Of a DNA stretch of 64,000 nt, positions 1,816-4,857 are shown in pieces. Positions within the stretch are counted from its first letter, which is position 1, and each line of letters starts with the position of its first letter. The notes under the pieces are model-generated. The model made no database searches. It was not told where the DNA came from and saw only the letters and a list, made by a program, of their open reading frames with translations. The position numbers and the translations under genes are program-made. This DNA is from an uncultured bacterium (lineage in GTDB: Bacteria; Patescibacteriota; Minisyncoccia; UBA6257; 2-01-FULL-56-20). The stretch lies in the NCBI GenBank assembly GCA_963719425.1, contig OY970382.1, positions 455,100-519,099 of the forward strand. Direction: 5' to 3'.

Positions 1816-2412
1816 TGCTTTTTATCATAACATACTCTAGCGGTGTATTTTGAAGATAGTTCGAACGGAATTGCGCCCTCGCCGCGCTTCGCGCAACTCG
1901 GATGGGGCGGGGCGAAATGAAAGGAGGAGCCGCGAACATTAACAATTTCAAGTTTTTCTTTGGCGGAATACAGATTCAAGCGCGTGAAGTACGCACAACC
2001 GTTCCTTCAAAAAAGAAGAGACTTCGCAATGCACGAAGCCCTTGAGTGGTGGCCAGATCCGGGGCGGACTTCAACGAGCTTTTGCTCTCCATCCGTTGGC
2101 CCGGACCTGGTTTCTAACACGCGTCTTGCCAAGGAACAGCTACTCTACTTGCTGGTGTCCTGGGGGGCCTTCCTCCGGTGGGTCTATACTCCCAGAGCCA
2201 ACCAGCACGTTTACTATATGCCAGCCAATGTTATTGTCAACTAATAGTAAAAAACCAAAAAAACAGCAAGATGCTGTTAATACTCCAAATCAAATTATGG
2301 AAAAATTTCTTTTGCCCTTATTGATACCTCCTTCTCGTTTTCGCCGAAGAATGAATACAAATTGGCCGCCGAGCGAAACGGGGCGGACGGCTCGCATTTG
2401 CAATTTCCCGAC

Positions 2413-2487
2413 TGGCGGGGGCGCCAGGATTCGAACCTGGAAGTCAGGATTTGGAGTCCCGCAGTTTGCCGTTGAGCTTACGCCCCC
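2413..2487 (-). tRNA. tRNA-Trp (anticodon CCA), CCA encoded
   Basis: Reverse complement folds as a cloverleaf: acceptor GGGGGCG/CGCCCCC, anticodon stem CGGGA/TCCTG with loop CTCCAAA, T-arm CCAGG-TTCGAAT-CCTGG; one mismatch in the D-stem. Confidence 0.75.
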
Positions 2488-3152
2488 GTTAAATGTAAAA
2501 ATGCTCTGGCGACAGCCAGCAATTGTCGCGCCAAATCATTGCTGTGATAGCGAACAGTTATACACCCTTGATAATTCTCCCGGATTCTCCTCCCCGTATT
2601 TGGCTTTCGACAAGATTTGATGAACTGCTGCTTATCAATACTAGTTATTTTTGACCAAAAATCAAGCTGTTTCTGCGCCGAATGGTAAGAATGAATATGC
2701 ACGCAAGGATGGAATTTTCCTTCATTAAGAACAAAAGATTGGCGTAGTAAACGGAGAAAAACCTTCACTAGTGTCGGATCTGAATTGGTGAATGCCATCC
2801 CGCTTTTCGGATTCTTGTTCCCTTCGCACCAGAACATCATTGCGCATATTATTTTTTTGTAATTAGGCCTCCGCTGAATCTCCTCGAGCGCCGCCTGAAA
2901 ATATTTTTCTCCAATAATCATTGTTTGGACGTGCCTTTTGGCGGCGCCGATAAATTGTCCTTGTTTAATGAGGCTGAGCAGTCGCGCTTGAGCTCGCTTG
3001 TCCAATATGATATCGCGCAGCCAAAGAGAAACCGTATTCGCGGGAACGCGTAAAAAACGACCGATTTCCTTTATGGAACGACCTTTCTGGCGAAGTCTGA
3101 TTGCTTCCTGCCGCATAACAGAAGAATATGCCACAAGATCATCATGGCACAC
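2478..3152 (-). CDS. HTH-domain protein of unknown function (paralog A of a pair flanking rpmG and an intron-containing tRNA)
   Basis: N-terminal resolvase/sigma-r4-like HTH (GRSIKEIGRFLRVPANTVSLWLRD). Shares colinear motifs with the ORF at 3712..4311 (FWCEGNK/LYWGEGTK; NSDPTLVKVF/NTDPALIKIF; LDFW; GxxTVxYH...L). No confident family assignment. Confidence 0.5.
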   Translation of the reverse strand: MCHDDLVAYSSVMRQEAIRLRQKGRSIKEIGRFLRVPANTVSLWLRDIILDKRAQARLLSLIKQGQFIGAAKRHVQTMIIGEKYFQAALEEIQRRPNYKKIICAMMFWCEGNKNPKSGMAFTNSDPTLVKVFLRLLRQSFVLNEGKFHPCVHIHSYHSAQKQLDFWSKITSIDKQQFIKSCRKPNTGRRIRENYQGCITVRYHSNDLARQLLAVARAFLHLTGA

Positions 3153-3187
3153 GCGGGATTAAATAATTCTTAAAGAAAACTTGACGG

Positions 3188-3367
3188 CTATTTTCCGGTA
3201 ATCCTCGCCTCCTTGTGCACCGTTTGTTTGCGGCACCACTTGCAAAATTTCTTGAACTCCAGCTTCCGCTCCACGGTCTTCTTGTTCTTGGTCGTGTAAT
3301 AATTCCGCCGCTTGCAAACTGAACAGCGGAGGGTGATCAATTTGTCGGCACGTTTCACTTTCGCCAT
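3188..3367 (-). CDS. rpmG: 50S ribosomal protein L33
   Basis: [59 protein letters not shown]: L33 zinc-ribbon signature. Internal Met chosen; the upstream 18 codons of the tracked ORF are likely spurious. Confidence 0.8.
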
Positions 3368-3435
3368 GGGAACTATTCTAGCGGATTGCGGAAAAATTCG
3401 CAAATCGCGCTCGCGTGCCACCTTGAACCACTTTG

Positions 3436-3721
3436 AGCCGATGGTCGGATTTGAACCGACGACCTACTCCTTCATCGCTACCTCAACTTCGCAACGCTTA
3501 TATGAGGATTAGACTGTATCTTGCGCATACCGCTTGTGGCGGTCGAGCGCCCCTTGTCAGTCGTTCGGGCGGGAAGAATGATTTTTCTCGCCACGGTCTT
3601 GGCCATCGCTCCACGCACTGGCTTTTAACCGTAATTCGGGATTCACGGGCGGGTTTCCCTGCCCGTGGGCATGACCCTTCGGTCCACCATGGAGTTGCTC
3701 TGCCAGCTGAGCTACATCGGC
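3436..3721 (-). tRNA. tRNA-Thr (anticodon GGU) interrupted by a ~213-nt group-I-like intron between anticodon-loop positions 36 and 37
   Basis: 5' exon (rc of 3686..3721) = GCCGATGTAGCTCAGCTGGCAGAGCAACTCCATGGT. 3' exon (rc of 3436..3472) = AAGGAGTAGGTCGTCGGTTCAAATCCGACCATCGGCT. Together these form a perfect 73-nt cloverleaf (acceptor GCCGATG/CATCGGC, anticodon stem ACTCC/GGAGT, loop AUGGUAA). Confidence 0.65.
3473..3685 (-). other. Putative group I self-splicing intron within tRNA-Thr(GGU)
   Basis: The 5' exon ends in U. The intron begins GGACCGAAGGGUCAUGCC, where GGGUCAUG can pair with exon CAUGGU to form P1 with a U.G pair at the splice site. A P7-like pairing GACUG...CAGUC and an S-element-like AAGAUACAGUCUAAUCC are present. 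The intron ends ...UAGCGAUG (omega G). It is too short to encode a protein. Confidence 0.55.
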
Positions 3722-4311
3722 ATTTTCTCTTTTGAAACCAAGTCAACCAATAAGTCCCGCAACTTCTTATTGTGATACATCACAGTCATAACTCCGTATT
3801 GGCTCTTTCTTCTATAGGTACCCAAGTGGCCGGACTTTGTGACGATTGGTTTATTGATTTGGTCCCTCTCTATATTAAGTTTTTTAATCCAAAAGTCCAG
3901 AGCTTCCTCTGTGTCAATATCGTTGAACAATTGCAGACCAAATTTTAGATCTTCCTTGCGAATGTAAAATATCTTGATAAGGAAACTGATAAATATTTTA
4001 ATAAGCGCCGGATCGGTGTTACCAAGACGAACCGATGACAAATTGGCCTTAGTCCCTTCTCCCCAATAAAGACCGATACCCAACCCAAATAGTTTCGCCT
4101 TCTCCGCGGTATTGGGCTTATGAAAGCGGAATGGGTCGCCGTTTGGATTCCTCTTTACATACGTCGCTTCGTTGCGAGTCCGTCTAGGAATTTGATATTT
4201 TTCCATCCAATACGAAATCGTATGCAAAGAGCAATTCAAGATAGTGGCAATATCTTGCATAGATTTATTCTCACCTTTGTAGAGTTTGACCAAAACGGGC
4301 TTTTTGATCAC
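3712..4311 (-). CDS. HTH-domain protein of unknown function (paralog B of the 2478..3152 ORF)
   Basis: N-terminal HTH (MQDIATILNCSLHTISYWMEKY), then 'GLGIGLYWGEGTK' (weakly reminiscent of a LAGLIDADG-type G-[DE]-G motif) and conserved blocks shared with paralog A. The stop overlaps the 5' end of the intron-containing tRNA by ~10 nt. Confidence 0.5.
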   Translation of the reverse strand: MIKKPVLVKLYKGENKSMQDIATILNCSLHTISYWMEKYQIPRRTRNEATYVKRNPNGDPFRFHKPNTAEKAKLFGLGIGLYWGEGTKANLSSVRLGNTDPALIKIFISFLIKIFYIRKEDLKFGLQLFNDIDTEEALDFWIKKLNIERDQINKPIVTKSGHLGTYRRKSQYGVMTVMYHNKKLRDLLVDLVSKEKMPM

Positions 4312-4786
4312 GTCTCAACTTTACCAAAAAGACATTAAAAAATTGTTAAATATTGATTGGGAGTATACTGATGGTATGGAACTCCAAGTCGGCGTCAAGG
4401 CTCTTCTTCAAAATAAGAGCGGCAAGTACCTCCTCGTACGCCGCTCATCCGAAAAATATCCGGAGGTTGGCGCACAGTGGGACATCGTCGGCGGGAGAAT
4501 CAATCCGGGCACCCCACTCATTGATAACCTGAAAAGGGAAATCAAAGAAGAGGTGAATTTGGATCTGGTTGAGGCGCCGAAACTCATTGCGGCTCAAGAT
4601 ATTTTAAGGGTTCCCGGCAGACACGTCGTCAGGTTGACCTATCTGGGCAAGATTGACGGACAACCAAAACTGAACGATGACCATGTAGAGTGTCAATGGT
4701 TCGCCCTGGAAGAAATCAAAAAACTGGATGCTTTGGATATCTATTTCAAAGCGCTCCTTGATGACGGCAAGTTTGATAACGGTTGA
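4286..4786 (+). CDS. NUDIX-family hydrolase (degenerate Nudix box)
   Basis: 'WDIVGGRINPGTPLIDNLKREIKEEVNL' approximates the Nudix signature GX5EX7REUXEEXGU; small (~160 aa). Confidence 0.55.
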   Translation: MTKTGFLITSQLYQKDIKKLLNIDWEYTDGMELQVGVKALLQNKSGKYLLVRRSSEKYPEVGAQWDIVGGRINPGTPLIDNLKREIKEEVNLDLVEAPKLIAAQDILRVPGRHVVRLTYLGKIDGQPKLNDDHVECQWFALEEIKKLDALDIYFKALLDDGKFDNG

Positions 4787-4857
4787 GCCGGAGAGAGGAG
4801 TCGAACCTCCAACCTCTGCTTTACAAAAGCATTGCTCTGCCATTGAGCTACTCCGGC
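4786..4857 (-). tRNA. tRNA-Thr (anticodon UGU)
   Basis: rc = GCCGGAGTAGCTCAATGGCAGAGCAATGCTTTTGTAAAGCAGAGGTTGGAGGTTCGACTCCTCTCTCCGGCT; acceptor GCCGGAG/CTCCGGC, anticodon loop TTTGTAA. Confidence 0.75.

What the first reader, a model, noticed from the sequence alone, without database searches (positions are those of the whole stretch)
2478..4311. Two paralogous HTH-domain proteins flank the intron-containing tRNA, rpmG and tRNA-Trp
The ORFs at 2478..3152 and 3712..4311 share an N-terminal resolvase/sigma-r4-like HTH and four colinear conserved blocks (~30% identity), yet match no family I can name. They occupy the positions where secE/nusG normally follow tRNA-Trp/rpmG. One abuts the 5' end of the intron-containing tRNA and the other abuts tRNA-Trp. 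The block 'GLYWGEGTK'/'MFWCEGNK' is faintly reminiscent of the G-(D/E)-G of LAGLIDADG endonucleases, but the downstream spacing does not fit well. They could be free-standing homing-endonuclease-like or intron-associated factors, or an unrelated novel DNA-binding family that repeatedly inserts next to tRNAs.
Basis: inference. Interest (0 to 1): 0.55.

Follow-up and report, generated by a model that had tools for sequence, protein, structure and literature searches.

The report
Endonuclease-like genes docked onto tRNA genes
The two ORFs belong to a very large, unnamed family from Patescibacteria (CPR), with a helix-turn-helix joined to a LAGLIDADG-like domain, whose members always sit directly upstream of one particular tRNA gene and behave like mobile homing-endonuclease cassettes.

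Summary
ORF1 (3712-4311, -) and ORF2 (2478-3152, -) are paralogs (BLASTP E=5e-14). Each has an N-terminal HTH_23-type domain and a C-terminal domain that no Pfam or NCBIfam model covers.

- **Overlap with tRNAs:** both stop codons are nucleotides 8-10 of the downstream tRNA. ORF1 runs into tRNA-Thr(GGU), which carries the known 36/37 "divergent group I intron". ORF2 runs into tRNA-Trp.
- **Generality:** of 101 non-redundant family genes counted, about 98 abut a same-strand tRNA, and the rest were left unresolved by a tRNA finder that misses these interrupted tRNAs. Each clade has its own tRNA; eight partners were seen.
- **Mobility:** the closest genome lacks ORF2 and has a different tRNA-Trp allele. 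Empty sites, a deletion remnant and cassettes better conserved than their flanks point to mobility.
- **Intron link:** ORF1 is enriched at intron-bearing alleles (p=0.004).

Best reading: free-standing homing-endonuclease-like genes living in tRNA 5' leaders. Cleavage is untested, and dN/dS of 0.04-0.11 keeps a domesticated role open.

The parts
3712..4311 (-). ORF1, 199 aa: HTH plus LAGLIDADG-like domain, Thr(GGU)-type clade. The GTG start at 4311 is supported by homolog N-termini.
   Evidence: More than 1500 homologs; dN/dS 0.04-0.11.
4198..4302 (-). ORF1 N-terminal helix-turn-helix, residues about 4-38.
3727..4116 (-). ORF1 C-terminal LAGLIDADG-like domain, residues about 66-195.
4048..4092 (-). 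Signature motif LFGLGIGLYWGEGTK (residues 74-88). E85-G86 are invariant in the superfamily.
   Evidence: The motif lies at the C-terminal end of helix 69-85.
3435..3721 (-). tRNA-Thr(GGU) interrupted at position 36/37. Exon 1 is 3686-3721, the 213-nt intron 3473-3685, exon 2 3435-3472. Nucleotides 8-10 (3712-3714) are the ORF1 stop codon.
   Evidence: No Rfam hit, which agrees with PMC13011429: 'divergent group I introns' of Patescibacterial tRNA-Thr at 36/37 are missed by RF00028.
3188..3367 (-). rpmG (ribosomal protein L33). A host gene between the two cassettes, not part of either element.
   Evidence: 59-aa L33 in L001. Homology with L002 runs up to its stop codon.
2478..3152 (-). ORF2, 224 aa from the GTG at 3152 (alternative starts at 3134 or 3116): HTH plus LAGLIDADG-like domain, Trp-type clade.
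2814..2858 (-). ORF2 signature motif, KIICAMMFWCEGNK region. E110-G111 align with ORF1 E85-G86.
2413..2487 (-). tRNA-Trp(CCA). Nucleotides 8-10 (2478-2480) are the ORF2 stop codon. This is an atypical allele, scoring 48.3 bits against 61-70 for the window's other tRNAs, and it differs from the L002 allele.
1837..3187 (-). A 1351-nt block (ORF2, its tRNA-Trp and 575 nt of further sequence). It replaces a 92-nt stretch (spacer plus a different tRNA-Trp) in the closest genome, L002.

Best explanation
ORF1 and ORF2 are free-standing homing-endonuclease-like genes of a large, unnamed Patescibacterial family. Each protein joins an N-terminal helix-turn-helix to one LAGLIDADG-like domain that keeps the acidic residue at the end of the motif helix.

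**What is shown**
- Each clade of the family sits immediately 5' of one particular tRNA gene, on the same strand.
- The stop codon is often supplied by tRNA nucleotides U8-A9-R10.
- The cassettes are present or absent between related genomes, and they are better conserved than their flanks.

**What is inferred**
1. The protein, probably as a homodimer, recognises and cuts the cognate tRNA gene in genomes that lack the cassette.
2. Repair from a cassette-bearing copy brings in the ORF together with its linked tRNA allele. This would explain how the window acquired ORF2 along with a foreign tRNA-Trp.
3. The linked tRNA allele escapes cutting because it differs. For Trp the anticodon stem varies; for Thr(GGU) the anticodon loop is split by the group I intron. 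The intron case would be collaborative homing.
4. The insertion is harmless because RNase P removes everything 5' of the tRNA. The ORF rides in the tRNA's leader, much as intron- and intein-borne endonuclease genes ride in spliced sequences.
5. RNase P cleavage would also remove the ORF's last two sense codons and its stop codon, so only unprocessed precursor could yield normally terminated protein.
For: **Architecture**
- HTH_23 is found in 30 of 30 members. LAGLIDADG_3 is the only recurrent non-HTH family, weak, in 5 of 30.
- E85, G86, N98, W141 and G173 are invariant across clades.
- The Glu-Gly closes the first helix of the domain.

**Docking**
- Of 101 non-redundant family genes, 87 have a same-strand tRNA starting -20 to +90 nt from the stop, and 60 of them at exactly -10.
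- Of the other 14, 11 still have the tRNA next to or overlapping the stop (-90 to +116 nt). Three are unresolved: for L019 and L020 ARAGORN reports no tRNA at the stop although the sequence there reads GCCGATGTAGCTCAG, and L055 has none called.
- Partners seen: Thr(GGU), Trp(CCA), Arg(UCU), Thr(UGU), Tyr(GUA), Arg(CCU), Met(CAU) and Asn(GUU).

**Mobility**
- Window and L002 are colinear at about 82% nt identity, except that a 1351-nt ORF2 block replaces 92 nt holding a different tRNA-Trp.
- Related loci have empty, compact tRNA-Thr / rpmG / tRNA-Trp clusters.
- L131 keeps only the last ~75 nt of ORF1. L139 and L008 hold fragments.
- The ORF1-tRNA cassette is 89% identical between L023 and L034, against 72% for their flanks. 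It is 85-90% identical among L040, L055, L062 and L076. For the pairs tested (L040 with L055, L062 and L076; L055 with L062) no homology is found further than about 100-250 nt upstream of the ORF.

**Immunity hints**
- Only 1 of 9 ORF2-linked tRNA-Trp alleles has the majority GGU..ACC anticodon stem, against 53 of 78 unlinked alleles (p=0.0015).
- In a sample chosen without regard to the ORF, ORF1 sits at 4 of 15 intron-bearing tRNA-Thr(GGU) alleles and at 1 of 63 intronless ones (p=0.004). Among ORF1-selected loci, 51 of 80 have the intron.
Against: - No sequence method places the C-terminal domain in a LAGLIDADG family at significance. Pfam hits are below threshold, PDB profile searches find nothing and Foldseek finds nothing.
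- Nearly all copies are intact and dN/dS is 0.04-0.11. That is stronger constraint than I would expect from a selfish element cycling through decay, and it fits a host function.
- The insertion itself does not visibly disrupt a target.
- Three ORF1-bearing loci (L009, L044, L196) have an uninterrupted ACTCC-type anticodon arm.
- Both association statistics ignore shared ancestry.
- Nuclease activity, target site and dimerisation are all untested.
Confidence: 0.55

Rival explanations
1. Domesticated LAGLIDADG-derived DNA-binding protein, analogous to WhiA. It would bind near its own tRNA gene and regulate transcription of the tRNA / r-protein cluster, with no cleavage or homing.
For: - An HTH is present in every member.
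- Purifying selection is very strong, dN/dS 0.04-0.11, and nearly all copies are intact.
- The same-strand, operon-like position is conserved across CPR classes.
Against: - The metal-binding Glu is invariant, whereas to my knowledge WhiA has lost the catalytic residues.
- Distribution is patchy.
- The closest genome lacks ORF2.
- A deletion remnant exists.
- Cassettes are more conserved than their flanks and sit in non-homologous contexts.
- Eight different tRNAs each having a private regulator, in only some genomes, is hard to motivate.
Confidence: 0.2
2. Nuclease used in conflict rather than for its own spread. It would cut consensus tRNA-gene sequences on incoming DNA (competing strains, or phage-borne tRNA genes), while the host copy is protected by a variant stem or an intron.
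For: This uses the same evidence as the homing model for a nuclease with a tRNA-gene target and protected linked alleles. Strong purifying selection would follow from a host benefit.
Against: - There is no direct evidence.
- No relatives were found in phage records.
- PADLOC was not searched.
- The strict 5' docking is not required by this model.
Confidence: 0.1
3. ORF1 is a trans-acting maturase that helps the highly divergent group I intron of tRNA-Thr(GGU) to splice.
For: - ORF1 is enriched at intron-bearing alleles.
- LAGLIDADG proteins can act as maturases (established knowledge).
- The intron is too divergent for RF00028 (PMC13011429).
Against: - About 25 of 80 ORF1 loci have an intronless tRNA-Thr.
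- 11 of 15 intron-bearing alleles in the unbiased sample lack ORF1 next door.
- ORF2 and most other clades flank intronless tRNAs.
- An invariant catalytic-type Glu is not needed for maturase activity.
Confidence: 0.08
4. Remnants of an IS/transposase (IS630/Tc1-like N-terminal HTH) or some other decayed element lying next to tRNAs by chance.
For: Weak HTH matches to IS630, IS3 and Sleeping Beauty N-terminal domains.
Against: - There is no DDE or other transposase domain.
- The C-terminal domain is conserved, with thousands of relatives.
- Purifying selection is strong.
- Position at tRNA 5' ends is strict.
- Only two copies occur in 64 kb, each at its own tRNA.
Confidence: 0.02

Closest known systems
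Single-motif (homodimeric) LAGLIDADG homing endonucleases such as I-CreI, I-CeuI, I-CvuI and I-MsoI, and the I-DmoI / intein endonuclease domains
   Same: - One motif helix ends in an invariant acidic residue followed by Gly, with small residues along the helix.
- The family shows presence/absence behaviour at a conserved RNA-gene target.
   Different: - No Pfam LAGLIDADG model is passed.
- There is an extra helix inside the core, and the first hairpin is reduced.
- An N-terminal HTH is fused.
- The gene is not inside an intron or intein but in the 5' leader of a tRNA gene.
- Cleavage has not been shown.
Free-standing homing endonuclease genes with intronless or collaborative homing: T4 seg/mob genes, mobE with I-TevIII (PMC2790892), and F-CphI beside the psbA intron (PMC6083498)
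   Same: - The endonuclease gene lies beside, not inside, the gene it is thought to target.
- The linked allele appears to be co-converted, as with the window's swapped tRNA-Trp.
- It is statistically linked to an intron that carries no endonuclease gene of its own.
   Different: - Those systems are in phages and use GIY-YIG, HNH or EndoVII-type enzymes.
- Here the hosts are cellular CPR genomes and the domain is LAGLIDADG-like.
- There is a fixed docking point at tRNA nucleotide +1, with the stop codon inside the tRNA.
- Many clades each have their own tRNA.
WhiA (DUF199): degenerate LAGLIDADG scaffold plus HTH, a transcription factor
   Different: - WhiA has two LAGLIDADG domains and a C-terminal HTH. 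To my knowledge it lacks the catalytic acidic residues and is near-universal in Gram-positive bacteria.
- Here there is one domain and an N-terminal HTH, the Glu is invariant, and distribution is patchy.
Divergent group I introns at position 36/37 of Patescibacterial tRNA-Thr(GGU) (PMC13011429)
   Same: The window's split tRNA is one of these. It has the same tRNA, the same insertion point and a similar size, and it is invisible to RF00028 and to default ARAGORN.
   Different: That paper concludes that most tRNA introns lack endonuclease genes and so rarely move, and text searches of it found no mention of a flanking gene. Here an endonuclease-like gene lies 36 nt upstream of the intron insertion point in 51 of 80 ORF1 loci.

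Membership tests
LAGLIDADG homing endonucleases | A motif helix ending in a conserved acidic (metal-binding) residue followed by Gly | tested here: met
   E85-G86 (ORF1), aligned with E110-G111 (ORF2), are invariant across all clades. They lie at the C-terminal end of helix 69-85 / 98-110.
LAGLIDADG homing endonucleases | The alpha-beta-beta-alpha-beta-beta-alpha core fold | tested here: inconclusive
LAGLIDADG homing endonucleases | A match to a curated family model (Pfam LAGLIDADG_1/2/3) above threshold | tested here: not met
   LAGLIDADG_3 matches only 5 of 30 members, best E=0.0088, below the cut-off. PDB profile searches find no LAGLIDADG chain.
LAGLIDADG homing endonucleases | Two-domain active unit, either a homodimer or a tandem fusion | not testable with these tools
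   No multimer prediction was possible. Double-length relatives exist but look like two complete HTH-plus-domain units.
LAGLIDADG homing endonucleases | Site-specific double-strand DNA cleavage | not testable with these tools
   This needs biochemistry.
Homing endonuclease genes (any family), as mobile elements | Presence/absence at a fixed site between related genomes, decayed copies, and lateral spread | tested here: met
   Window versus L002, empty sites, the L131 remnant, and cassettes better conserved than their flanks or lying in unrelated flanks.
Collaborative homing (free-standing endonuclease gene plus an intron without one) | The endonuclease gene is adjacent to an intron-bearing gene and associated with the intron | tested here: met
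   51 of 80 ORF1 loci carry the intron. In the ORF-agnostic sample, 4 of 15 intron-bearing against 1 of 63 intronless alleles have ORF1, p=0.004. There is no phylogenetic correction.
Collaborative homing (free-standing endonuclease gene plus an intron without one) | The enzyme cuts the intronless allele at or near the intron insertion site, and the intron protects | not testable with these tools
   The target is unknown. L009, L044 and L196 carry ORF1 with an intronless ACTCC-type allele, which argues against a simple version of this.
WhiA | Two degenerate LAGLIDADG domains lacking catalytic residues, plus a C-terminal HTH | tested here: not met
   There is a single domain, the HTH is N-terminal and the Glu is invariant.
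IS630/Tc1-type transposases | A DDE catalytic domain after the N-terminal HTH | tested here: not met
   Only the HTH matches, at far below the cut-offs. The C-terminal domain is unrelated.

The most novel reading that the evidence does not exclude
The 5' leader of a tRNA precursor is a third 'phenotypically silent' niche for homing endonuclease genes, alongside self-splicing introns and inteins. RNase P removes the inserted gene from the tRNA, so the insertion costs the host nothing.

On this reading, a radiation of LAGLIDADG-derived enzymes has specialised on individual tRNA genes across the CPR. These enzymes would also mobilise, in trans, the endonuclease-less group I introns of CPR tRNAs, and swap tRNA alleles between lineages. 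The stop codon inside the tRNA (U8-A9-R10) would tie translation of the endonuclease to the unprocessed precursor.
Probability: 0.35. Interest if true: 0.8.

Novelty: new variant of a known kind. Interest (0 to 1): 0.66.

Why it matters
- **Size of the gap.** A profile of the C-terminal domain finds 5,083 clusters (50% identity) at E<=1e-3. No Pfam or NCBIfam model covers it, and the sources call these proteins 'hypothetical' or 'HTH domain-containing'.
- **A usable annotation rule.** Members dock at the 5' end of one specific tRNA gene. That gives a functional hypothesis and a rule for annotating the family.
- **Intron mobility.** A recent paper concluded that Patescibacterial tRNA introns rarely move because they lack endonuclease genes (PMC13011429). 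An endonuclease-like gene 36 nt upstream of the tRNA-Thr intron site offers a trans route for their spread.
- **tRNA variation.** The window's tRNA-Trp came with ORF2, so these cassettes may explain odd tRNA alleles in CPR genomes.
- **Tools.** If the enzymes are active, they are a ready-made set of natural nucleases with distinct, conserved targets.

Tried and rejected
- **Sequence searches against solved structures.** Single-sequence and profile searches gave only HTH hits or nothing for the C-terminal domain.
- **Rfam on the split tRNA and on the whole window.** No group I intron hit. Published work explains this (PMC13011429).
- **secE/nusG displacement.** Rejected, because the ORF2-less relative has the same neighbours.
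- **A decayed copy of the L002-type tRNA-Trp in the window's extra 575 nt.** Not found; 101 of 500 shuffles scored as well.
- **The 575-nt segment as a structured RNA.** No Rfam hit, and the fold z-score is only -0.98.
- **Homologs in phage records.** None.
- **The canonical LAGLIDADG+HTH ORF beside tRNA-His in L083 as a bridge to this family.** hhalign aligns only the HTH.
- **Remnants of ORF1 upstream of all intron-bearing, ORF-less tRNA-Thr genes.** Clear only in L131, plus a fragment in L139.
- **An unbiased baseline for tRNA-Thr(GGU) anticodon stems.** I could not obtain one. The genome set was selected by ORF1 and the metagenome set by the ACTCC stem, so no immunity test was possible for ORF1.
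Full report
**What is in the window**

On the minus strand the order is:
- tRNA-Thr(UGU), 4785-4857
- a plus-strand NUDIX gene
- ORF1, 3712-4311
- a split tRNA, 3435-3721
- rpmG, about 3188-3367
- ORF2, 2478-3152
- tRNA-Trp, 2413-2487
- 575 nt of unassigned sequence
- an FN3-repeat gene

ORF1 and ORF2 are paralogs, with 29% identity over 110 aa of their C-terminal halves (E=5e-14). Both begin with an HTH_23-type helix-turn-helix. Both stop codons lie inside the next tRNA, at nucleotides 8-10: GCCGATG-TAG-CTCAG for ORF1 and GGGGGCG-TAA-GCTCA for ORF2.

The split tRNA, spliced as exon 1 3686-3721 plus exon 2 3435-3472, is a canonical tRNA-Thr(GGU). Its 213-nt intron sits after U36 and ends in G. 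Rfam finds no group I intron there. This matches a published description of 'divergent group I introns' at 36/37 of Patescibacterial tRNA-Thr(GGU), which RF00028 and default ARAGORN both miss (PMC13011429).

**What the proteins are**

No Pfam or NCBIfam model covers the C-terminal domain. No solved structure matches it by sequence.

- ORF2: WhiA 6.7, I-DmoI 6.5, TliVMA 6.4, I-Tsp061I 5.9, I-CeuI 5.2.

Across clades at 18-30% identity, the invariant residues are E85, G86, N98, W141 and G173 (ORF1 numbering), with K88, D100 and P101 nearly invariant. The Glu-Gly closes the first helix of the domain, which is where LAGLIDADG enzymes carry their metal-binding acidic residue. LAGLIDADG_3 is the only non-HTH Pfam family that recurs among members, but weakly: 5 of 30, best E 0.0088.

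I therefore call the domain LAGLIDADG-like. It is not a proven member. The core has an inserted helix and a reduced first hairpin, and no curated model is passed.

**How big the family is**

| Query | Result |
|---|---|
| ORF1 | more than 1,500 relatives, many 60-70% identical, from Paceibacteria, Saccharimonadia, Peribacteria, Moraniibacteria and others |
| ORF2 | 133 relatives by word-seeded search |
| C-domain profile | 3,687 proteins by word-seeded search |
| C-domain profile, exhaustive HMM search | 5,083 clusters (50% identity) at E<=1e-3, and 3,255 at E<=1e-10 |

Most members are about 220 aa. Their sources name them 'hypothetical' or 'HTH domain-containing'.

**The docking rule**

In 80 genome loci fetched through ORF1, the ORF runs into tRNA-Thr(GGU). 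The text is typically ..TTGCCGATG-TAG-CTCAG.., so the last two sense codons and the stop codon are the tRNA's acceptor strand and U8-A9-G10.

ORF2 relatives abut tRNA-Trp (L033, L041, L086-L088, L162, L213-L215). More distant clades sit in front of:
- tRNA-Arg(UCU) (L082-L085)
- tRNA-Thr(UGU) (L139, L141)
- tRNA-Tyr(GUA) (L125, L197)
- tRNA-Arg(CCU) (L150, again with the stop at tRNA nucleotides 8-10)
- tRNA-Met(CAU) and tRNA-Asn(GUU)

Of 101 non-redundant genes, 87 have a same-strand tRNA starting -20 to +90 nt from the stop, and 60 of those at exactly -10. Of the remaining 14, 11 still have the tRNA next to or overlapping the stop, at -90 to +116 nt. Three are unresolved. For L019 and L020 ARAGORN reports no tRNA at the stop, although the sequence there reads GCCGATGTAGCTCAG. 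L055 has none called.

The window has only these two copies. Its other four tRNAs are bare.

**Evidence that the cassettes move**

- **Window versus L002.** L002 is the closest genome, about 82% nt identity. The two are colinear except that window 1837-3187 (ORF2, its tRNA-Trp and 575 nt) replaces 92 nt in L002 that hold a quite different tRNA-Trp. No remnant of the L002 allele is left. So ORF2 and its tRNA allele are gained or lost as one block.
- **Empty sites.** Related metagenome loci show the compact empty arrangement: tRNA-Thr(UGU), tRNA-Thr(GGU), rpmG, tRNA-Trp (for example L108, L124, L126).
- **Decayed copies.** L131 retains just the last ~75 nt of ORF1 in front of its intron-bearing tRNA. 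L139 and L008 hold fragments.
- **Cassette versus flanks.** The ORF1-tRNA cassette is 89% identical between L023 and L034, while their flanks are about 72%. L040, L055, L062 and L076 share an 85-90% identical cassette. For the pairs tested (L040 with L055, L062 and L076; L055 with L062), no homology, even by tblastx, is found further than about 100-250 nt upstream of the ORF.

**Links to the intron and to allele variation**

Among ORF1-selected loci, 51 of 80 have the 171-229-nt intron.

I also drew a sample without regard to the ORF: a metagenome scan for the tRNA's AGAGCAACTCCATGGT. In it, ORF1 sits at 4 of 15 intron-bearing alleles and at 1 of 63 intronless ones (Fisher p=0.004).

For tRNA-Trp, 1 of 9 ORF2-linked alleles has the majority GGU..ACC anticodon-stem base pairs, against 53 of 78 unlinked alleles (p=0.0015). 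The window/L002 pair shows this contrast directly. The window's tRNA-Trp is also its lowest-scoring tRNA.

Both statistics ignore shared ancestry, so I treat them as hints that the linked allele is a protected variant.

**Counter-evidence**

- ORF1 is under strong purifying selection, dN/dS 0.04-0.11 over pairs with dS 0.4-2, and nearly all copies are full length. That is tighter than I would expect from a purely selfish element that cycles through decay. It keeps a host-useful role open, either WhiA-like regulation or a conflict nuclease.
- Three ORF1 loci carry an uninterrupted ACTCC-type anticodon arm. So 'the intron protects the anticodon-loop target' cannot be the whole story.
- Nothing here shows cleavage.

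**Most likely mechanism**

Shown: the architecture, the docking, the indel and allele swap, the remnant, the cassette-versus-flank contrast, and the intron association.

Inferred:
1. The protein dimerises and cuts the cognate tRNA gene in cassette-free genomes.
2. Repair copies in the ORF with its tRNA allele.
3. The linked allele is immune through stem changes or the intron.
4. The insertion is tolerated because RNase P trims everything 5' of the tRNA. The leader would then be a safe harbour comparable to an intron or intein.
5. In the window no same-strand promoter candidate separates ORF1 from tRNA-Thr(GGU), apart from a weak 9/12 match inside the ORF. The tRNA is therefore probably transcribed through ORF1.
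6. RNase P cleavage would strip the ORF's last two sense codons and its stop codon.

**Literature**

Full-text searches found no description of endonuclease-like genes docked at tRNA 5' ends in Patescibacteria. The closest concepts are free-standing endonuclease genes and collaborative homing in phages (PMC2790892, PMC6083498, PMC3984707). The tRNA-intron survey concluded that mobility is limited because the introns lack endonuclease genes (PMC13011429).

**Verdict**

I rate this a new variant of a known kind. Confidence in the homing-cassette reading is 0.55 and interest is 0.66.

Noticed in passing
window 1837-2412 (-): A 575-nt segment between tRNA-Trp and the FN3-repeat gene that is absent from the closest genome, L002. 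It has a near-consensus sigma-70-type promoter (TTGACA-16-TATAGT, 2240..2213) and two terminator-like hairpins (2278-2262 and 2041-2019). There is no Rfam hit and the fold z-score is only -0.98. A 58-nt stretch recurs in L101.
   Followed up: partly
L083 4267-4713 (-): A 148-aa ORF with a canonical single LAGLIDADG motif (IAGFFDGEGS) and a C-terminal HTH lies 13 nt upstream of tRNA-His (4178-4254, -). Apart from the HTH it is not detectably related to the family studied, yet it docks in the same way.
   Followed up: partly
L083 1501-2439, L084 1042-1980, L085 771-1709: A tyrosine-integrase gene sits directly upstream of the Arg(UCU)-type family gene in three independent contigs.
   Followed up: no
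L008 ~3302-3365; also L057, L058, L060 just after the ORF1 stop: ORF1 ends in a copy of the tRNA's first 10 nucleotides (for example GCCAATGTAG), but the real tRNA-Thr starts 40-60 nt further on with the same 10-mer. This is a short duplication of the tRNA 5' end.
   Followed up: no
P0245, P0261, P0265, P0273, P0285, P0295, P0311, P0381: Double-length relatives (396-576 aa) with two matches to the C-terminal domain. One of them (P0285) also shows several separate HTH matches. They could be tandem fusions or read-through gene calls.
   Followed up: partly
L047 2632-2926; L125 2710-2985: tRNA-Tyr(GUA) genes interrupted by ~190-212-nt introns. The one in L125 has a family gene 4 nt upstream.
   Followed up: no
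window 2413-2487 (-): The ORF2-linked tRNA-Trp scores 48.3 bits against Rfam tRNA, with two D-stem mismatches. The other five tRNAs in the window score 61-70 bits.
   Followed up: partly
window 4286-4786 (+) and 4311 (-): The longest NUDIX ORF (TTG at 4286) overlaps the ORF1 start divergently by 26 nt. The NUDIX gene more likely starts at the ATG near 4376 (MELQVGVK...), which leaves a ~65-nt divergent promoter region.
   Followed up: no
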